Positions 25,640 through 43,198 of a stretch of DNA of 52,735 bases are shown here, piece after piece. The notes beneath the pieces are model-generated. The model did no database searches, was not told the origin of the DNA, and worked only from the letters and a program-made list of their open reading frames with translations. A program made the translations under genes and the position numbers. Source of the DNA: a phage; the sequence record PZ662386.1. The stretch is one strand, 5' to 3'. How positions within the stretch are numbered: the stretch's first letter is position 1; the number at the start of each line of letters is the position of its first letter.

Positions 25640-25814
25640 TTGGATATGGTGAAGGCTGACGTTTGTCAGTTAATATGCGAGAAGAGATTCGATGCGTTAT
25701 CGTCGTTTCTCTTTGAGCTAGAATAAAACAAGTAAATTAAATATTTATTATTCCCAATATTGCTACAATATTGAGAGCAATATTAGGAATGCGTAAAGTT
25801 AAAACCAAATGGTA

Positions 25815-28294: not shown

Positions 28295-28334
28295 AAATAA
28301 ATCCTTTAATTCCCAATATTCGGACAATATTGTT

Positions 28335-29235
28335 GCATGTAATATTGTCCCGATATTCGACATTAGTTGGATGTGAAGTAAAAGAATACGGAGAAATATT
28401 CCGCATGTCATGTTGAATCATTCTAGAAACATTCAGCATGTCAGCTTTGAGTTACAGTGTTGTAATGATGTGGCAATCATTGAACTCCCTGGGAAGGCCA
28501 CCTACAGTTCCAGCAACCATGACACAGAGTAGGAATATCTATCCGAAACTTTGACTTCATCTGTAGCATGTTCAATTGCTCCAATATTGTTCCTTCTCCT
28601 ATTATCAAGGCCCACCCACAAGCCGGGAGATAACTTTAGCAAGACTGGAACTTTTGGACATGCTTCTTTCTTTCAATCAGAATTCGAAAGAAGAGAAGAA
28701 GTCGGACTAAGCCTCTCGTTTGCACGCAGAAGCCGCCCCGATTTTGAGCAACAAATATTGTGACAATTGCGTCGCAGTATGGCATGTAAATATTGCTACA
28801 AATTGGCATGTTGGAATGTGGCAGAATTGTTAGAGGACTAATCACCTCGAAGATACAATCGTCTACCAATCTGGCATGTTAATTTTGTAACAGTATTTGT
28901 GCCAATTTCGCATGTAATAGCTGTATCAGTAGTGACCCAATATTCTTGCAACCCGCATGAATACTGGCTTCCAGCCAAGCGAAGGCTTTATCATCGCATG
29001 TAATATTGTGACAATATTGGGATAAAACCCTTTATTTAAATCATTTAGTTTATTAATTAAATGGTCGGTTTTCTGTACATAGGTATTTAGCTGTTTGTGC
29101 CAAATACAAACAAGTTGGCTGCTTCTACAGAACTCCAGTGCTATAAATGTTCGTGCCAATCTGCTGCGATTTATCTCATTTGGCGGGGTAATATTGTATT
29201 AGATTGGCATGTCATTCTTTCGATTAGTTGCATGT
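28335..29235 (+). repeat. array of about 12 degenerate GCATGT(A)A(T)ATTG-type repeats
   Basis: GCATGT at 28335, 28403, 28436, 28566, 28782, 28806, 28874, 28910, 28996, 29207, 29230 plus a GCATGA variant at 28955; interspersed CAATATTG palindromes. Confidence 0.6.
28360..28377 (+). promoter_or_regulatory. conserved promoter-like motif
   Basis: ACATTAGTTGGATGTGAA exact consensus copy. Confidence 0.4.
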
Positions 29236-36841: not shown

Positions 36842-37388
36842 CATTACTCAAGCAGTAGAACAGCTTAAGTCCTGGCGTAGAGATGAAACCTTATTGGTTC
36901 GTTTCTACACAGACGTCTACAAAGGCGAAAGCAGTTCTGAATTTGTAGATGCGTGGATTGATGGCCTGTCTTGGCGTCACTATGATTTCGACATGCGGGA
37001 TTATTTGCATGAAGAATACGGCATTGAATATCCTGAAACTGGTACATACGACATTCTGGAATCAAGCGAAGAAGACGTTACAGAAGTTTGCTTTGCTAAC
37101 GGCCTGTTCAGCATTCGTAAGTACGATAAGTTCAATGAACTGCTCGTTGACACCGACTTGGATGTAATTCTTGCTGCATTCCGTAGTGGTGATATCGATA
37201 TTTTCACTGTAGACGATTTGAATGACAAGGTTGTTTGCCGATGTGATTCAATTGCGGATTATTTCCAGCAATATGATGGCATAGAAGTTCCAGACCATCT
37301 TCGTCCATATATTGATTGGGATGCAGTTGCAAGAGATTACGGAAGCGATTACACTTTCTCCGAAGGGATACTATTCTCAAATGCGTGA
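36828..37388 (+). CDS. hypothetical strongly acidic protein
   Basis: ATG at 36828 with GGGAGA RBS; Asp/Glu-rich throughout. Confidence 0.45.
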   Translation: MQNDNITQAVEQLKSWRRDETLLVRFYTDVYKGESSSEFVDAWIDGLSWRHYDFDMRDYLHEEYGIEYPETGTYDILESSEEDVTEVCFANGLFSIRKYDKFNELLVDTDLDVILAAFRSGDIDIFTVDDLNDKVVCRCDSIADYFQQYDGIEVPDHLRPYIDWDAVARDYGSDYTFSEGILFSNA

Positions 37389-37620
37389 TTTAAATATTGC
37401 TGAACTTGAGGCGGGATTGATTGTTCACCACCAGCCTCGAAACACTTTCTATCGTATTCTTGGGCCTACAAAGATTAAAACTCACTGCGGAAGTTGGGTG
37501 GATGGGTTTGCTTACCAAGAGGTGAAGAAGTACGGGGACCATACTTTCTTAAGTATTGATTCCTCTACTATCTACACACGACCGAAAGAGCTATTCGACT
37601 CAGACTGGAAAACACTATAG
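37381..37620 (+). CDS. hypothetical protein
   Basis: 79-aa ORF from ATG 37381 overlapping upstream stop. Confidence 0.35.
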   Translation: MRDLNIAELEAGLIVHHQPRNTFYRILGPTKIKTHCGSWVDGFAYQEVKKYGDHTFLSIDSSTIYTRPKELFDSDWKTL

Positions 37621-37689
37621 TTCCAGGCGGGTTTCTTCGAAGTGCCAAGCGGGTTTTGTACTCGCATTGGCCTTCGGCTTTAGTCTGAA

Positions 37690-37707
37690 ACATTAGTGGG
37701 ATTTGAT
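37690..37707 (+). promoter_or_regulatory. conserved promoter-like motif (variant)
   Basis: ACATTAGTGGGATTTGAT preceded by TCTGAAAC, as in other copies. Confidence 0.35.
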
Positions 37708-37830
37708 TCTGACCACTTAGGGAAGAAAGGCATTATACACTTGTCGCCAAACGGGTGTCAAGCACTTTCTTCATTTATTTTAATTTATTCTTATTATTCT
37801 TTTTGTTTGGAATATTGGAATAATTCTGAA

Positions 37831-37848
37831 ACATTAATTGGAATTGAA
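37831..37848 (+). promoter_or_regulatory. conserved promoter-like motif (variant)
   Basis: ACATTAATTGGAATTGAA preceded by TTCTGAAAC. Confidence 0.35.
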
Positions 37849-38002
37849 TTAGTGTAATTCTGTCTGTACTCTTTTCCACTAGCAATTGTAGAGGGAGTCC
37901 ACTGCAATAAGCGCAGCCTCAAACAACCAAGTCTGGACAACTTGGGAAGAGAGTACAGCACAAAATTACATTAGTTTGAATTGAAACAACATCAGATAAG
38001 AG

Positions 38003-38067
38003 CTTTGTAACTAGGTAGTCCGTCTGGTACCAAGACGTGTGAGAACGTTCGATTCGTTCTACAAAGC
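38003..38067 (+). ncRNA. tRNA-like element lacking a canonical D-arm
   Basis: Perfect 7-bp acceptor-like stem CTTTGTA/TACAAAG, 5-bp hairpin with 7-nt loop (CGTCT GGTACCA AGACG), and T-arm GAACG TTCGATT CGTTC. Confidence 0.3.
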
Positions 38068-38618
38068 TCTTTTCGATGGAATGTTTCCATCATATACATT
38101 TAACTTTTAACATAGGCCAAAGGGCCGGAATACTTATCCACAGAAAGCTATTCACTTGTTATAGGCGATGTATTGGGATGAATTGGAACTAAATAAGCAA
38201 GCTGTTAGGGCTGAATAATTAGAGGGTTATGCCTCATGCTTATGTTAGTCATTCGAAAATAGGTTTGTGCCACAAGCTGCTGGTGCTCTGAGGAAGTCGG
38301 ACAAACAGGGCTTAGAGTGGCATAATCCGCACAAAACCGCGCCACCAGCTATGCCAAAGCAGGTGGATTGGGTGAATGTATTGGGAAGGGTTGCAAAGCC
38401 TCTGTGACACGCCTGAGCCGCAAGGCGACGACACTCATGTGATTAGCGTATCGCACCCTAACGGGAGTAACCCTTCGCCAATGCAGTTATCCAGAATTGA
38501 CACAAACGGTAGGCAGTGGCCCGATTTTCGGCCTTCCTGCGCTACCCTGTGGCCTGTTCCTGGGCCAAAAGATGAGAAGAGAAGTCACAAACACTGAATC
38601 GAAAATTGGAGAGTTCCT

Positions 38619-38939
38619 ATGATTCGCAAGCATTCTGCTAAAGTTTTGACGTTGAGAAATGTACTAATGTTCCCTTCAAGTGGGGAAGGAGAGGAAGAAA
38701 CAATCCACTTCGTTCTCGTTGGTGGGCGTTGGTACTATAACGGCACCAATTCTTTCCACGTAAGTCTGTCGGAGAAAGATGGATTCTGGAAGCACACCTT
38801 TAAGGAGTTGCTTGAAAGCAGTGCCAACTACACCCTTGCCGAAGTTAAGAAATATTTCTACTGCGGCCCAAACAAGTCCATGCAAATCGCAACTCGCAAT
38901 TGGACAACAAACCAACCGATTTACGGAGTTCCATTTTGA
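38619..38939 (+). CDS. hypothetical protein
   Basis: 106-aa ORF with GGAGAG RBS. Confidence 0.45.
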   Translation: MIRKHSAKVLTLRNVLMFPSSGEGEEETIHFVLVGGRWYYNGTNSFHVSLSEKDGFWKHTFKELLESSANYTLAEVKKYFYCGPNKSMQIATRNWTTNQPIYGVPF

Positions 38940-40025: not shown

Positions 40026-40364
40026 ATGGCTAAGATTGTAACCGTAACTCAGTACGAAGCTAACGATGGTTCACTGTTCCTGACCGAAGCAGAGTGTAAT
40101 GCACATGACTTCAAACTGGAAAACGGTGCTAAAATTGAGAAAGCTGCCGAAGCGTACCTGAACACCGTTGGCGCTATCGACCGTTCTCGCTCCATGCAGA
40201 AGAACACCATCGAGCAGTTCCTGGCATTCTACCTGCCGTGGGTTGAAGCTGGTGAGCCGGAAGTTGAGCGTACTAAGTTTGATACTCCGAAAGAAGCTAA
40301 AGTTGCTGACGCAGGTGTTGCCGAAGCTGCCGAAGCTGCTGTTGAAGAAGCTCCGGTATTCTAA
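40026..40364 (+). CDS. small acidic protein with high-expression codon usage
   Basis: 112 aa, Glu/Asp/Ala-rich C-terminus; first gene after a promoter-like motif. Confidence 0.5.
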   Translation: MAKIVTVTQYEANDGSLFLTEAECNAHDFKLENGAKIEKAAEAYLNTVGAIDRSRSMQKNTIEQFLAFYLPWVEAGEPEVERTKFDTPKEAKVADAGVAEAAEAAVEEAPVF

Positions 40365-41268
40365 GGTGCCAATGGCAAACTTGAGAGACTAAGCTAAATC
40401 GATCTGGCATGCACTGGAATATTTCCGGTGCTGCCTTGAACCCACTCCAGAGTGAGTGAGTGGGCTTCAATGAGCATTCTTGTGATTAGAGTTGGGAGGT
40501 AGGCCGATGCCCAAGCTCATGGCCCAGGCAAGAGTGTTCATTGAAGTAGTTTTCTGAGTCTTACGACGGGCCTAAACTGCCTGAAGTTATTGCGACTGTT
40601 TTATTCATTTAAAATAAATGCAAATGATTCTGAAATGCGAGTTGCGGCTTAATTAAATTTAAGTCCTCTCCGTGGTCTTCCAATCCCACGTAACCAAATT
40701 TGGCGCATTGTGGCTTCGAGATGTGATTAATAAATCGGAGCAATAATTAATTTGTATTCTGCGATGCAATGCAGGCTTAAGTCCCCAGTGCGCGTGGGGA
40801 TGTGACAGAGTACAAACTTAATTATGCAGTTGGATATTTCTAGAGGACGGACGAGCACACTGGAATGTCTTCAATTGGTTTAGTGTGAGAAGCTGTGCCA
40901 ATATGAAACGTAACTCCTTGGGGAAGTGCTCCTCTGGATTTCCCTCCACACAGGAATCTCAAGCCTGTGGCAGCGACTTCGAAGCTGCACTGCGTAACCT
41001 AAATTCACCCTAAAGTGAGTTGCCCTGAGTATGGAAATAAACTGCTCATAACCGATGGTATCTACAAAGGTAGATTAAATCAGGTTGCCTGTTGGTACTT
41101 GGGTTCAACACCTGCTTGCACTCGCAAAGTAGTGCCTCGTACCTGAGATGAAGTGAGTCGGGACCATCAATCCCACGTTATGTCAAAACACAGTAGGCGA
41201 CTCACGGATTCTACAAGCCTCGCAGTTCGGGAAAACCTGCGTTATCAAAACCCCCCCCACTCATATTT

Positions 41269-41361
41269 GGACGAGTAGCTCAGAAGGTCTGCTCCAGAGC
41301 TTAGTCAGGTAGAGCAATCTGTTCGACAGATGTGTCGTTGGTTCGAATCCAACCTCGTCCA
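41269..41361 (+). tRNA. tRNA-like gene, non-canonical (93 nt; possible UCG anticodon)
   Basis: Perfect 7-bp acceptor stem GGACGAG/CTCGTCC, TAGCTCAG...AGGTAGAGC D-arm interrupted by ~23 nt, canonical T-arm GTTGG TTCGAAT CCAAC; anticodon arm ambiguous. Confidence 0.4.
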
Positions 41362-41394
41362 CCTACTTTAATAATCCGCAACACTGGAGTCCTT

Positions 41395-41780: not shown

Positions 41781-41913
41781 TTATTGCTTAATTGCACAAC
41801 CAATCTATTTGGATATTGCAGAAGTGAAAATCTTATCACGCGAAACCAAAACACAGATTTTAGTCCACAATGAAACGTGGGCACAAAAGTGTTCTCAACT
41901 TACCCGACAGTGA
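41704..41913 (+). CDS. o-spanin-like lipoprotein (Rz1-like)
   Basis: Signal peptide with lipobox-like IVSC; overlaps the 3' end of the upstream gene in another frame. Confidence 0.45.
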   Translation: MFRKKCLAVLIAMSIVSCSQSGFVSDYCLIAQPIYLDIAEVKILSRETKTQILVHNETWAQKCSQLTRQ

Positions 41914-42290
41914 GTGAACAAATGCTCGCCAACGCATTTCATTTGGCAGTCCGGTACGGGACTTTAAACACACGTATATCATAGTCGAGGGAGTGTGCGA
42001 CTTTAAATAACGAGACTCTAGCAACTTGTTGCGATGGTGGTGTAAGCCCACGCGTTTGGAAGCAGGACTCCAACTCAAACAAACCTGCAAATTGCTCTGG
42101 GCATAACAATTGAAATTGCTGCCTCGCATTGAACGCGAGAAAGTTCAGGTAGTCACTTCCTAGAACAGTGGCCGGGAACAGACCTAGACAAAGTGCTTGA
42201 GAACGTTAGCTCTGTCTTGCCAGCATTAATGGCACGTTGGCCGCGTAAAGGCCACAGCGTCTGACCAACGTATCGGTCAACTAATTCAAT

Positions 42291-42358
42291 GGGATTTTCG
42301 TATGTACGGGCTTGACCGTGGTGAAACGACCTGACTGGTTCGATTCCAGTAAATCCCC
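42291..42358 (+). ncRNA. tRNA-like element (68 nt, truncated cloverleaf)
   Basis: Perfect 7-bp acceptor-like stem GGGATTT/AAATCCC, T-arm ACTGG TTCGATT CCAGT, one internal hairpin. Confidence 0.3.
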
Positions 42359-42474
42359 CGAACAATGGATTCGTAGAGTTAATGAAACCTGCACAACGGG
42401 CTAGGTGAAACATCTGAGGCCGACCGTGTAATTGTGAACGTGGAGTTCACCGAATCCACCAAATCAATGGGCTA

Positions 42475-42541
42475 GTGCAAATGTCAGTCACTAGAAGATG
42501 TGTTGCAAAACGTCTTCCATGATGTGCAAAGTGTCAGTCAC
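42475..42541 (+). repeat. direct repeat GTGCAAA(T/GT)GTCAGTCAC x2
   Basis: Copies at 42475-42491 and 42524-42541; flanked by repeated CCACCAAAT. Confidence 0.5.
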
Positions 42542-42967
42542 GTGCCCACCAAATACGGAGACGCTCGAACTTCCAACCACCGCTGGGGAAGTAGAAGTTT
42601 GTAGAACTCCGCCATTTTCCTAACAGTTATGCCTCTGTTCAAAAGGCTCATGTAAGCGTCTGGCATACCGTAGCGATACGGCTTAGTTGCGCTGATTGTG
42701 ATGTGTCGAAAGAAAGTTCAGGCTTTCGTTTGAGTTCCTCCTCATCTCGAAGTTAGCTGTATTCAAAATACAGACTATGTTCCTATTCACATGAAATATG
42801 CAAGTCAGGGTTCTTAATGTTCAAACATGATGCGAGCATTAAGCGGGTTTATACTTTCCCCGATGGTCCCCATAAACAAGGTTGATTCACTTGGGCGGTT
42901 CGAATCAAATTTAATAAGTGTTTTGTAATAGTCAGGGCACTTACTTAAATTTTAACTGGAGAGAAAC

Positions 42968-43198
42968 ATGAAAACTGCTGAAATTGCCGAAGAGATTTAC
43001 AAGGCCGTAATAGCCAGCCAAATTACAAGTGAAGTTCTGCACATGAATATTGAAGAAGTTCGCAATGCCTTTGGTGGTTTTGCAATCTTGTCAATAGAAG
43101 CTGCGGAAGCACTGACAAGCACGTACAATCAACGCGAATATGAAAAGCGTTCTGTACTAAATGCGTCGATGAAAGAAATTCAGGCGTCATTAAAATAA
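42968..43198 (+). CDS. hypothetical protein
   Basis: 76-aa ORF with GGAGAG RBS, first gene of replication block. Confidence 0.45.
   Translation: MKTAEIAEEIYKAVIASQITSEVLHMNIEEVRNAFGGFAILSIEAAEALTSTYNQREYEKRSVLNASMKEIQASLK

What the first reader, a model, noticed from the sequence alone, without database searches (positions are those of the whole stretch)
37621..38618. Second ORF-poor block with two promoter-like motifs, a long inverted repeat and a GC-rich segment
Two promoter-like copies (37690, 37831) are followed by an AT-rich tract and a ~25-bp-arm imperfect inverted repeat (about 37851-37875 pairing with 37950-37975). A tRNA-like element follows at 38003-38067, then a GC-rich segment (38230-38600) whose only ORF (38376-38597) has no RBS. 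This looks like a promoter-driven structured RNA rather than coding sequence.
Basis: seen in the sequence. Interest (0 to 1): 0.45.

Follow-up and report, generated by a model that had tools for sequence, protein, structure and literature searches.

The report
Structured non-coding RNA block in Chaseviridae phage
This 1-kb gene-free stretch of an E. coli phage (Carltongylesvirus, family Chaseviridae) holds a terminator-like hairpin, three phage-promoter copies and a leftward host-type promoter. It is transcribed into a conserved, highly folded non-coding RNA with a tRNA-like piece that matches no catalogued RNA family and whose function is unknown.

Summary
**Observation:** confirmed. **Interpretation** (promoter-driven structured RNA, not coding): supported.

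- **Context.** The window is a Carltongylesvirus genome. The 37621-38618 gap is kept in all ~50 relatives and, as a ~0.75-1.1-kb gap at the same place, in five other Chaseviridae lineages. It is more conserved than the flanking genes.
- **Signals at the 5' end.** A terminator-like hairpin; phage promoters at 37690 and 37831 (phiEcoM-GJ1 "promoters 4 and 5") plus a degenerate third at 37968; the genome's only perfect sigma-70 promoter, on the minus strand; an AT-rich tract.
- **The RNA.** The + strand RNA folds into three long helices:
  - LS1, ~31 bp;
  - LS2, ~20 bp, enclosing a D-arm-less tRNA-like element;
  - LS3, ~25 bp.
- **Support for the folds.** LS2 and LS3 pass formal covariation tests. 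LS1 is supported by different stem sequences around a conserved interior. Each helix encloses an interior that differs between phages.
- **Not coding.** ORF 38376-38597 is broken in 11 of 18 relatives.
- **Not a known family.** Rfam and ARAGORN find nothing.
- **Likely mechanism (inferred).** A transcription switch point plus a processed leader or ncRNA precursor. A T7-like replication origin role for the promoter/AT-rich part is possible. Function is untested.

The parts
37637..37677 (+). Terminator-like hairpin just after the stop codon (37618-37620) of the last gene upstream, followed by CUUUAGU.
   Evidence: Folds within 37621-37730. The homologous site is annotated as a rho-independent terminator in SA91KD. 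The U-tract is weak and termination is untested.
37684..37706 (+). Phage-RNA-polymerase promoter P1 (core ACATTAGTGGGA, 37690-37701).
   Evidence: Exact motif match. Equals 'putative phage promoter 4' of phiEcoM-GJ1 and a promoter feature in SA91KD. The core is shared by about 8 + strand copies in the genome, those inspected lying just upstream of genes or in ORF-poor stretches.
37731..37761 (-). Perfect sigma-70 promoter on the minus strand: TTGACA-N18-TATAAT(G). It points leftward, against all genes. Its spacer holds a small inverted repeat.
   Evidence: 12 of 12 consensus matches. It is the only such site in the genome, with 0.01 expected. The -35 and -10 hexamers and the 18-bp spacing are kept in 4HA13, phiA050, Faunus and PP101 while the spacer sequence changes. 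The spacer is shortened in SSEM1 and Y2.
37766..37824 (.). AT-rich tract with GGAATA/GAATAA repeats in both orientations, between P1 and P2.
   Evidence: GC 0.325. Densest cluster of these hexamers in the genome, though only 5 copies. More copies occur at the same place in Faunus and 4HA13.
37825..37847 (+). Phage promoter P2 (core ACATTAATTGGA, 37831-37842).
   Evidence: Equals GJ1 'promoter 5'. This core plus the upstream GGAATATTGGAATAAT is the island best conserved across genera, at about 86%.
37846..37977 (+). LS1: a ~31-bp helix (arms 37846-37877 and 37945-37977) enclosing a conserved interior (37878-37944). The interior reads GGAGUCCAC, then a hairpin, then a hairpin with loop CUGGACA; this could form a pseudoknot (GUCCA with UGGAC).
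   Evidence: z = -6.4; rank 1 of 2630 windows. The closing helix has a different sequence in TH25/L026, TH26, SSEM1 and phiA050, yet the interior is conserved and both inner hairpins covary. The module is absent in GJ1, TH24 and TH37 and is replaced by a small ORF in other phages.
37962..37984 (+). Third promoter copy P2' (core ACATTAGTTTGA, 37968-37979), degenerate in this phage. It overlaps the 3' arm of LS1.
   Evidence: One mismatch to the core. Relatives have the intact CATTAGTTGGAATTGAA here.
37990..38078 (+). LS2: a ~20-bp helix (37990-38009 with 38060-38078) enclosing a D-arm-less tRNA-like element (38003-38067). The element has an anticodon-like hairpin at 38021-38037 and a T-arm at 38043-38059.
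   Evidence: 18 pairs, 92.5% paired, 13 pairs changed on both sides, 0 of 500 shuffles. The T-stem covaries: GAACG/CGTTC, GAATG/CATTC, ACAGG/CCTGT. The interior differs between phages. Not called by ARAGORN or Rfam.
38075..38091 (+). Small hairpin GATGGAA-TGT-TTCCATC. Its first 4 nt can alternatively extend LS2.
   Evidence: Folds in every variant. Compensated in SSEM1/Y2 (GATAGC...GCTATC) and PP101 (GGCAGCA...TGCTGTC). The CATC:GATG pairing is seen.
38188..38249 (+). S2: a closing stem with two small hairpins (AGC-UGUUAGG-GCU and GAGG-N6-CCUC) joined by GAAUAAUUA.
   Evidence: Fold (z = -2.35). The sequence AAGCTGNTAGGGCTGA is kept in 4HA13, phiA050, SSEM1 and Y2; a second variant occurs in Faunus and PP101, and a more diverged form in TH37, TH26 and GJ1. 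Stems appear compensated by eye. No formal pair count was made.
38262..38328 (+). Helix GGUUUGUGCCAC/GUGGCAUAAUCC enclosing the conserved loop CUGAGGAAGUCGG.
   Evidence: Predicted, but thermodynamically unremarkable (z = -0.9). The stem ends appear compensated in phiA050 and Faunus by eye. This is the weakest of the proposed helices.
38369..38493 (+). LS3: a ~25-bp helix (38369-38394 with 38467-38493) enclosing a hypervariable interior (38395-38466) that exists in at least 5 versions among close relatives.
   Evidence: Covariation test. G.U pairs are fixed at three positions. Energy is -54.7 kcal/mol on the + strand against -43.9 on the minus strand. Every interior version still folds inside the same helix. 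The region 38212-38478 is replaced in GJ1 by an HNH endonuclease gene.
38503..38567 (+). Invariant CAAAC(G), then hairpin A (38508-38546) and hairpin B (38550-38567).
   Evidence: The same arrangement is found in all 24 distinct sequences from six lineages, with different stem sequences. At the base of hairpin A, 4 of 5 pairs are compensated.
38584..38618 (+). Conserved GUCACA...AAAUUGGAGAG leader end, with the ribosome-binding site (38608-38613) for the gene starting at 38619.
   Evidence: Conserved across genera. No terminator-like site was found between LS2 and the gene, so P2 transcripts should run into it.

Best explanation
The block marks the end of the upstream (putative early) gene cluster of a Chaseviridae phage and the start of phage-polymerase transcription. 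It is also the template for a long, folded non-coding RNA.

**Shown**
- The upstream genes end at a terminator-like hairpin.
- Three copies of the family's phage-RNA-polymerase promoter follow. The third is weakened in this phage.
- A consensus host promoter points backwards.
- From P2, about 780 nt of non-coding + strand RNA precede the next gene.
- That RNA is built from modules:
  - three long helices (LS1 ~31 bp, LS2 ~20 bp, LS3 ~25 bp), each formed by sequences flanking an interior;
  - the interiors are a possible pseudoknot, a D-arm-less tRNA-like element, and a set of variable hairpins;
  - smaller conserved hairpins follow, ending at the ribosome-binding site of gene 38619.
- The helices are maintained by compensatory changes, while the interiors are swapped between phages by recombination at the repeated promoter sequences.

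**Inferred**
- Helices of 20 bp or more, made by flanking sequences, are the architecture that RNase III uses to cut out rRNAs and to process T7 mRNAs.
- The coaxial acceptor/T-arm stack is the minimal shape that RNase P recognises.
- The most likely mechanism is therefore this: the phage polymerase makes a precursor that host RNases cut into stable small RNAs and a defined, stabilised 5' end for the downstream mRNA.
- The backward sigma-70 promoter would oppose or pair with read-through early transcripts.

What the released RNAs do is unknown.
For: - **Promoters.**
- **Sigma-70 site.** Unique in the genome and conserved in four other lineages.
- **Non-coding.**
- **Conservation above the flanks.**
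- **Covariation.** LS3 and LS2. For LS1, different stems enclose a conserved interior. The 3' hairpins recur in all six lineages.
- **Strand.** Fixed G.U pairs and + strand energies.
- **Stability outliers.** LS1 and LS3 rank 1 and 6 of 2630 genome windows.
- **Read-through.** No terminator-like site before gene 38619.
- **Cassette exchange at promoter repeats.**
- **T7 precedent.** That T7 places RNase III sites just downstream of several of its own promoters rests on my own knowledge, not on a paper read here.
Against: - There are no transcript, cleavage or phenotype data. Processing by RNase III or RNase P is inferred from shape only.
- phiEcoM-GJ1, a viable phage, has lost LS1, and an endonuclease gene replaces much of the region that includes the LS3 5' strand. 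Individual modules are therefore dispensable, at least in the laboratory.
- Several modules are absent or replaced in other relatives.
- P2' is mutated in this phage.
- Part of the RNA (38262-38362) is not unusually stable.
- The alignments for the distant genera were partly anchored by hand.
Confidence: 0.55

Rival explanations
1. The 5' part (37684-37847) is the phage's primary replication origin, of the T7 type. Transcripts from the tandem phage promoters would open the AT-rich, repeat-bearing tract and prime DNA synthesis. The backward sigma-70 promoter would help start the other direction. This does not exclude the RNA explanation for the rest of the block.
For: - Two phage promoters lie 141 bp apart and flank the AT-rich tract with GGAATA repeats.
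- This is the best-conserved part of the block: 96-98% within the genus, with an island at about 86% across genera.
- It lies downstream of the ArdA-containing gene cluster and about 5 kb upstream of thyX and the large ORFs beyond it.
- T7 replication starts at the promoters phi1.1A and phi1.1B, and every T7 origin needs a T7-polymerase promoter (PMC8373140).
Against: - Nothing was tested.
- There are only 5 repeat copies, and no origin-binding protein is known.
- The same promoter occurs at about 8 places in the genome.
- This reading does not explain the covarying RNA helices downstream.
Confidence: 0.3
2. The modules are trans-acting small RNAs rather than a leader. In this reading the tRNA-like element and the other interiors act on the host, for example as mimics or decoys of tRNA for host translation factors, tRNA-modifying or tRNA-cleaving enzymes, or RNA-sensing defence systems.
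For: - The T-loop and the GG-containing D-like segment are conserved while the anticodon-like arm varies between phages.
- The LS3 interior is hypervariable among near-identical phages.
- Two neighbouring gene-free blocks carry a tmRNA-like tag, a tRNA-shaped gene and another tRNA-like element.
- An anti-restriction gene (ardA) lies just upstream.
Against: - No target is known.
- The variable interiors showed no resemblance by eye to the E. coli or Yersinia CRISPR repeats as I recall them.
- The anticodon-like loops are not canonical.
- The modules are dispensable in some phages.
Confidence: 0.2
3. The block is a hyperplastic region: a dump of promoter-flanked cassettes and decayed tRNA genes with no function of its own beyond the promoters.
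For: - Cassette gain, loss and replacement occur at promoter repeats.
- A homing endonuclease gene is inserted in GJ1.
- The arrangement resembles the PeSL cassettes of T4-type phages (PMC2839356).
Against: - The block is more conserved than the flanking genes.
- Helices are kept by compensatory change across six lineages.
- The interior of LS1 is conserved while its stems change.
Confidence: 0.08
4. The block hides small protein-coding genes, such as ORF 38376-38597 or the ORFs that some relatives' records annotate inside it.
For: Several records annotate 30-90-aa ORFs inside the block.
Against: - Those calls differ from record to record.
- ORF 38376-38597 is broken in 11 of 18 relatives.
- There is no codon periodicity in any ORF tested.
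- The only conserved small gene, a 58-61-aa zinc-ribbon protein, belongs to an alternative cassette that is absent from this window.
Confidence: 0.03

Closest known systems
T7 promoter, RNase III site and primary-origin region (phi1.1A/phi1.1B, R1.1)
   Same: - The phage encodes a single-subunit T7-like RNA polymerase (ICTV profile).
- Tandem phage promoters sit downstream of the upstream gene cluster next to an AT-rich tract.
- A long hairpin begins directly downstream of a promoter.
- In T7 the phi1.1A/B promoters are the primary origin (PMC8373140).
   Different: - There is no sequence similarity.
- The non-coding RNA here is about 780 nt long and multi-domain, whereas T7 has single hairpins.
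- It includes a tRNA-like element and exchangeable interiors.
- Neither cleavage nor origin activity has been shown.
RNase III excision stems of rRNA operons
   Same: Sequences on either side of an interior pair to form a helix of 20 bp or more. This holds for LS1, LS2 and LS3.
   Different: - The interiors are 50-75 nt, not rRNAs.
- No cleavage data exist.
- The comparison rests on general knowledge of RNase III, not on a test made here.
tRNA-like non-coding RNAs (bacterial and phage YrlA/Y-RNA-like RNAs, T4 stable RNAs C and D, mascRNA)
   Same: A long stem formed by the 5' and 3' ends, carrying a T-arm with a canonical T-loop and a GG-containing D-like segment. It is not a decoding tRNA.
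   Different: - No Rfam hit to any of these families at E<=10.
- No ro/rsr gene was noticed among the neighbouring genes examined.
- The D-arm is missing altogether.
- These comparisons are recalled from memory, not tested beyond Rfam.
PeSL mobile regulatory cassettes of T4-type phages (PMC2839356, PMC4122927)
   Same: Repeated promoter-containing sequences flank variable cassettes, and recombination between them explains insertions, deletions and swaps between close relatives.
   Different: - The repeat here is the phage-polymerase promoter, not a host early promoter plus terminator stem-loop.
- The cassettes include RNA modules, not only ORFs.
Large phage-associated structured RNAs (ROOL, GOLLD)
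   Same: Several hundred nucleotides of conserved, covarying non-coding RNA in a phage genome, next to tRNA-like sequences, with unknown function.
   Different: - No match to either Rfam model.
- Different hosts and no sequence relation.
- This RNA is contiguous with a downstream mRNA.

Membership tests
tRNA | Recognised by tRNA detectors (ARAGORN; Rfam RF00005). | tested here: not met
   ARAGORN finds 0 genes in the window. Rfam gives no tRNA hit in 37500-38750 at E<=10, nor in 7 homologous loci at E<=5. ARAGORN calls appear only at an 80% threshold, with poor cloverleaves in a different register.
tRNA | Cloverleaf with a D-arm and a 7-nt anticodon loop carrying U33. | tested here: not met
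   Only 11 nt lie between the acceptor strand and the anticodon-like stem, against about 19 in a tRNA. The loop is GGUACCA, with G at position 33 (sequence; fold).
tRNA | 7-bp acceptor stem stacked on a 5-bp T-stem with a UUCRANN T-loop. | tested here: met
   CTTTGTA/TACAAAG and GAACG-TTCGATT-CGTTC. The T-stem covaries between variants.
Any Rfam 15 family | Score at or above the gathering threshold. | tested here: not met
   0 matches in the whole window. Only chance-level hits at E about 8-9 in the block.
Chaseviridae (phiEcoM-GJ1-type) phage promoter | Match to the repeated motif ACATTAGTTGGA(T/A)(G/T)TGA on the coding strand, outside ORFs. | tested here: met
   Positions equal the GJ1 promoters 4 and 5 and the SA91KD promoter features.
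Chaseviridae (phiEcoM-GJ1-type) phage promoter | Transcription initiation by the phage RNA polymerase. | not testable with these tools
   The ICTV profile states that the family's promoters have not yet been identified experimentally.
Sigma-70 promoter (minus strand, 37761..37731) | -35 TTGACA, a 16-18-bp spacer, -10 TATAAT. | tested here: met
   12 of 12 matches with an 18-bp spacer. Unique in the genome. Conserved in four other lineages. Activity was not testable.
RNase III processing site | About 20 bp or more of near-continuous double-stranded RNA. | tested here: met
   LS1 ~31 bp, LS2 ~20 bp, LS3 ~25 bp.
RNase III processing site | Cleavage by RNase III in vivo or in vitro. | not testable with these tools
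   No data.
T7-type primary origin | Phage-polymerase promoter(s) adjacent to an AT-rich region. | tested here: met
   P1 and P2 flank a tract of 0.325 GC.
T7-type primary origin | Site of first DNA synthesis, dependent on transcription. | not testable with these tools
   No data.
Protein-coding gene | Reading frame kept in relatives, with substitutions concentrated at third codon positions. | tested here: not met
tmRNA (considered for the S2 motif GGGCUGA...) | tRNA-like domain plus a tag reading frame. | tested here: not met
   ARAGORN in tmRNA mode finds nothing in the block, even at an 80% threshold. No Rfam tmRNA hit.
PeSL-like mobile regulatory cassette | Repeated regulatory sequence flanking cassettes that differ between close relatives. 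| tested here: met
   The slot between P2 and P2' holds LS1, a zinc-ribbon ORF, or nothing.
PeSL-like mobile regulatory cassette | Composite promoter plus terminator stem-loop in each repeat. | tested here: inconclusive
   The repeats here are promoter cores only. LS1's arms partly overlap them.

The most novel reading that the evidence does not exclude
The block is a polycistronic precursor of several trans-acting small RNAs: a tRNA mimic, a pseudoknotted RNA and a hypervariable hairpin RNA. Each would be cut out of an rRNA-style processing stem. It would belong to a roughly 3-kb suite of RNAs resembling parts of the translation apparatus (tRNA-like, tmRNA-like) that Chaseviridae place between their upstream (putative early) gene cluster and thyX. 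The suite would be used to manipulate host translation or to decoy tRNA- or RNA-targeting defence systems.
Probability: 0.2. Interest if true: 0.8.

Novelty: new variant of a known kind. Interest (0 to 1): 0.58.

Why it matters
- **Experimental access.** Chaseviridae are common E. coli, Yersinia, Erwinia and Pectobacterium phages, are used in biocontrol work, and grow on laboratory E. coli strains. If the RNA is real, it is a large covarying phage RNA that can be studied in a tractable host.
- **Promoters.** The ICTV profile says the family's promoters are unidentified. This block gives a conserved promoter core, ACATTAGTTGGA, in several genera, and a concrete place to map transcription starts.
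- **Gene finding.** Several database records annotate spurious small ORFs across the block. The evidence here says they are not genes.
- **A design principle.** The arrangement of a conserved closing helix around an exchangeable interior may be how phages carry and swap small RNAs.
- **Limits.** The promoters were already annotated, the function is unknown and nothing is shown experimentally. The finding is a well-supported lead, not a mechanism.

Tried and rejected
- **RNase P RNA.** GAGGAAGUCGG (38289-38299) recalls conserved region I of RNase P RNA, and ACAAAC(G) is invariant. However, no Rfam RNase P model hits at E<=10, and the only candidate partner strand I found is not kept in TH37.
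- **tmRNA, one- or two-piece.** I considered this for the S2 motif (GGGCUGA...) together with the upstream T-arm. The strands cannot pair, and ARAGORN and Rfam are negative.
- **Group I intron or split tRNA.**
  - The flanking ORFs differ between phages, so they cannot be exons.
  - ARAGORN's intron-containing calls appear only at an 80% threshold and are inconsistent.
- **CRISPR-repeat mimic in the variable interiors.** No resemblance by eye to the I-E or I-F repeats as I recall them. This was not tested formally.
- **Metagenome scan.** A degenerate S2 pattern returned 120 loci, of which only one (L110) was a true homologue.
- **IMG/VR scans.** These added only L026, L027 and L196. The motifs appear restricted to Chaseviridae.
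- **DNA inverted-repeat search over the genome.** It cannot see G.U-rich helices such as LS3, so I replaced it with a folding scan.
- **Consensus folding of the 3' domain across genera.** It recovered only the base of hairpin A, because the upper parts do not align.
- **Literature.** The phiEcoM-GJ1 genome paper is not held in the library. The family papers that I could read do not mention this region.
Full report
**What the window is.** BLAST of 37300-38900 against phage records finds 47 records, nearly all Carltongylesvirus (Chaseviridae, Cleopatravirinae). Examples are vB_EcoM_JL1, DE15, ST32, SA91KD, phiEcoM-GJ1 and the Yersinia PYps phages. The larger ORFs are nearly all on the + strand, as reported for relatives. 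In the records that are carefully annotated, the finding's interval is a gene-free gap of about 1 kb. It lies between a small gene that follows ardA and the next small gene.

**Checking the observation.**
- The promoter-like motif TCTGAAACATTARTKGGA is exact at 37684, 37825 and 39926. With up to 3 mismatches there are 4 hits against 0.21 expected.
- The two copies in the block sit at the positions annotated as 'putative phage promoter 4 and 5' in phiEcoM-GJ1 and as promoters in SA91KD.
- The shorter core ACATTAGTTGGA, with at most 1 mismatch, occurs 8 times, always on the + strand; the contexts inspected lie just upstream of genes or in ORF-poor stretches. One copy is a degenerate third copy at 37968.
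- The AT-rich tract (GC 0.325-0.35) and the GC-rich segment (0.485-0.535) are real.
- The inverted repeat is a ~31-bp helix, 37846-37877 with 37945-37977. Its z-score is -6.4. It is the most stable of 2630 sliding windows in the genome after correction for composition.
- The 'tRNA-like element' has an acceptor-like stem and a canonical T-arm at 38043-38059. It lacks a D-arm and U33, and neither ARAGORN nor Rfam calls it.

**The block is not coding.** The homologue of ORF 38376-38597 contains stops or frameshifts in 11 of 18 relatives. Variable sites fall 36/29/36 over the codon positions, and the other ORFs in the block behave the same way. The small ORFs that some records annotate here differ from record to record.

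**It is under selection at the nucleotide level.**
- In TH24, TH26, TH37, MLP1 and PYps3T the upstream gene is 73-75% identical to the window. The downstream gene is 69-78% identical in TH24, TH26 and TH37, and about 85% in MLP1 and PYps3T.
- In the same phages the block is 96-98% identical in its first 228 nt (TH26 86% in a single match spanning the whole block) and 82-92% in its last 550-650 nt.
- A gap of about 0.75-1.1 kb sits at the same place in 4HA13 (Sabourvirus), Faunus, SSEM1 and Y2 (Loessnervirus), PP101 (Suwonvirus) and Aeromonas phage phiA050.
- Islands of 75-93% nucleotide identity survive there, although the neighbouring ArdA protein is only 31-39% identical (27% in PP101).

**Anatomy of the 5' part.**
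- A hairpin at 37637-37677 follows the stop codon. Its homologue is annotated as a terminator in SA91KD.
- P1 comes next.
- On the minus strand lies TTGACA-N18-TATAATG (37761..37731). It is a 12/12 sigma-70 consensus and the only one in the genome, with 0.01 expected.
- Both hexamers and the 18-bp spacing are kept in 4HA13, phiA050, Faunus and PP101, while the spacer, which holds a small inverted repeat, changes. In SSEM1 and Y2 the spacer is 10 bp shorter.
- I take this site to be a real host-polymerase promoter that fires leftward, against the genes. Its role is unknown.
- Between it and P2 lies the AT-rich tract with GGAATA/GAATAA repeats in both orientations. Faunus and 4HA13 have more copies.

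**Anatomy of the RNA.** Three long helices dominate. Each is made by sequences that flank an interior.

*LS1 (37846-37977).*
- The closing helix has quite different sequences in TH25/L026, TH26, SSEM1 and phiA050.
- The interior is conserved: GGAGUCCAC, then a hairpin, then a hairpin with loop YUGGACA.
- Both inner hairpins covary.
- GUCCA and UGGAC could pair as a pseudoknot. Both are invariant, so this cannot be tested by covariation.

*LS2 (37990-38078).*
- I took fixed-length flanks anchored on the invariant CATC and GATG from 14 distinct sequences.
- Of 18 pairs, 92.5% of cells are paired and 13 pairs are changed on both sides.
- None of 500 shuffles reaches this, and slid controls give 40-47% paired.
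- The interior is the tRNA-like element. It exists in at least four versions.
- All versions keep a T-arm with a UUCGANN loop and a GGUAG-like segment. They differ in the other hairpin.
- In phiA050 (and, at the matching place, SSEM1) the interior of the corresponding helix is instead the LS1-type module.

*LS3 (38369-38493).*
- There are 25 pairs, 91% paired over 17 sequences from six lineages, with 13 pairs changed on both sides.
- 0 of 500 shuffles reach the observed paired fraction or covariation score (2 of 500 for the count of pairs changed on both sides); slid controls give 40-46% paired.
- Three positions are G.U in 11-14 of the 17 sequences.
- The helix is 11 kcal/mol more stable on the + strand than on the minus strand. 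The RNA is therefore the strand the promoters read.
- The interior (38395-38466) exists in at least five versions among near-identical phages, and every version still folds inside the helix.

*Smaller elements.*
- The hairpin at 38075-38091 is compensated in SSEM1/Y2 and PP101.
- The S2 motif at 38188-38249 is the best sequence anchor across genera.
- A weaker helix lies at 38262-38328.
- After an invariant CAAAC(G) come two hairpins, present in all 24 distinct sequences with different stems.
- The RNA ends in the conserved ribosome-binding region of gene 38619. No terminator-like site lies before it.

**Modularity.**
- The slot between P2 and P2' holds LS1 in this phage and in JL1, ST32, SA91KD, TH25 and TH26.
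- In Mangalitsa, PO103-1, Ecp_YSF, PYps16N and Faunus it holds a conserved 58-61-aa zinc-ribbon ORF.
- In GJ1, TH24 and TH37 it holds nothing.
- The junctions lie in the repeated promoter sequence. This resembles the promoter-flanked cassettes (PeSLs) of T4-type phages (PMC2839356).
- In GJ1, 38212-38478 is replaced by an ORF annotated 'SbcC'. It has a CxxC...HH...H pattern that looks HNH-like by eye and matches an endonuclease PHROG, with no Pfam hit; a homing endonuclease is my inference. Parts of the RNA are therefore dispensable for growth.

**Known families.**
- Rfam 15 gives nothing at gathering thresholds in the window.
- It gives nothing meaningful at E<=10 in the block or at E<=5 in seven homologous loci.
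- The family papers I could read do not mention the region: the ICTV profile and the 4HA13, ST32 and PYps papers. The ICTV profile says the family's promoters are not yet identified.
- The phiEcoM-GJ1 genome paper is not held.

**Mechanism.**
- *Shown:* promoter motifs, a non-coding state, conservation, and + strand RNA helices with covariation.
- *Inferred:* helices of 20 bp or more made by flanking sequences are what RNase III cuts in rRNA precursors and T7 mRNAs, and an acceptor/T-arm stack is what RNase P recognises (both from general knowledge).
- I therefore think the phage polymerase makes a precursor from P2 (and from P2' in relatives). Host RNases would cut it into stable small RNAs plus a defined 5' end for the downstream mRNA.
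- The promoter/AT-rich part also looks like the T7 primary origin, where the phi1.1A/B promoters start replication (PMC8373140). This could hold at the same time.
- Whether the excised RNAs act in trans is open. The neighbouring gene-free blocks, which carry a tmRNA-like tag and further tRNA-like elements, make that reading worth testing.

**Verdict.** The promoters were already annotated. The structured RNA matches no Rfam family and is not mentioned in the family papers I could read. Its function is unknown.

Noticed in passing
window 40357-40743 (tag reading frame 40620-40652): A tmRNA-like element sits in the next gene-free block.
- The mini reading frame GCA AAT GAT TCT GAA ATG CGA GTT GCG GCT TAA gives ANDSEMRVAA*; as I recall it, the E. 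coli tag is ANDENYALAA.
- It is kept as ANDNEMRAAA* in SSEM1 and Y2 and as ANDSEMRMVA* in Faunus, with synonymous changes.
- Rfam gives weak hits to permuted and alpha tmRNA (E = 0.09-0.15).
- ARAGORN calls a permuted tmRNA only at an 80% threshold.
- This may be a phage-encoded two-piece tmRNA. The tRNA-like domain is unconvincing and has no G3.U70.
   Followed up: partly
window 41270-41362: A tRNA-shaped gene with an extra ~18 nt in the D-arm region. It has a canonical T-arm and the acceptor GGACGAG/CTCGTCC. The default ARAGORN run misses it, and Rfam tRNA scores 27.9 bits against a 29-bit threshold. It corresponds by position to the 95-bp 'tRNA-Arg' reported for ST32 and phiEcoM-GJ1. About 870 nt of gene-free, strongly folding sequence precede it; window 40401-40540 ranks 2 of 2630 for stability.
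   Followed up: partly
window 42291-42357, inside the gene-free stretch 41790-42960: Another tRNA-like element: acceptor GGGAUUU/AAAUCCC, T-arm ACTGG-TTCGATT-CCAGT, and a non-canonical middle. Rfam gives only a weak tRNA-Sec hit, E = 2.2. This is a third ~1.2-kb block with no + strand ORF of 70 aa or more, upstream of the 76-aa ORF at 42968 and thyX.
   Followed up: no
L004 (phiEcoM-GJ1) 1800-2201, replacing window 38212-38478: The ORF annotated 'putative exonuclease SbcC' has a CxxC...HH...H pattern that looks HNH-like by eye and matches an endonuclease PHROG (no Pfam hit); likely a homing endonuclease inserted into the non-coding RNA region.
   Followed up: partly
L002 2044-2220 (Mangalitsa_027) and homologues in PO103-1, Ecp_YSF, PYps16N and Faunus: A conserved 58-61-aa zinc-ribbon protein (CxxC...CPxC). 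Its ATG lies within a few bases downstream of the promoter core, so it is nearly leaderless. It occupies the slot that holds the LS1 hairpin in this window.
   Followed up: partly
window 25746-25790, 28307-28365, 28936-29021: Repeated palindromic elements built on ATTCCCAATATTG / CAATATTGGG in other gene-poor regions. The copy at 28307-28365 ends in a phage-promoter core at 28360. These may be binding sites for a regulator.
   Followed up: no
Hits H67 (PP952070.1) and H79 (PP763568.1): 'Staphylococcus phage Pel53' carries this block at 93% identity to an E. coli Carltongylesvirus. This suggests a wrong host label or contamination in that record. Aeromonas phage phiA050 is an unclassified relative that keeps the same block architecture.
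   Followed up: no
window 37619-37656: Direct repeat AGTTCCAGGCGGGTTT / AGTGCCAAGCGGGTTT, 22 nt apart, at the start of the block. TTCCAAGC-type copies are kept in 4HA13, Faunus and PP101. It is either part of the terminator region or a protein-binding site.
   Followed up: no
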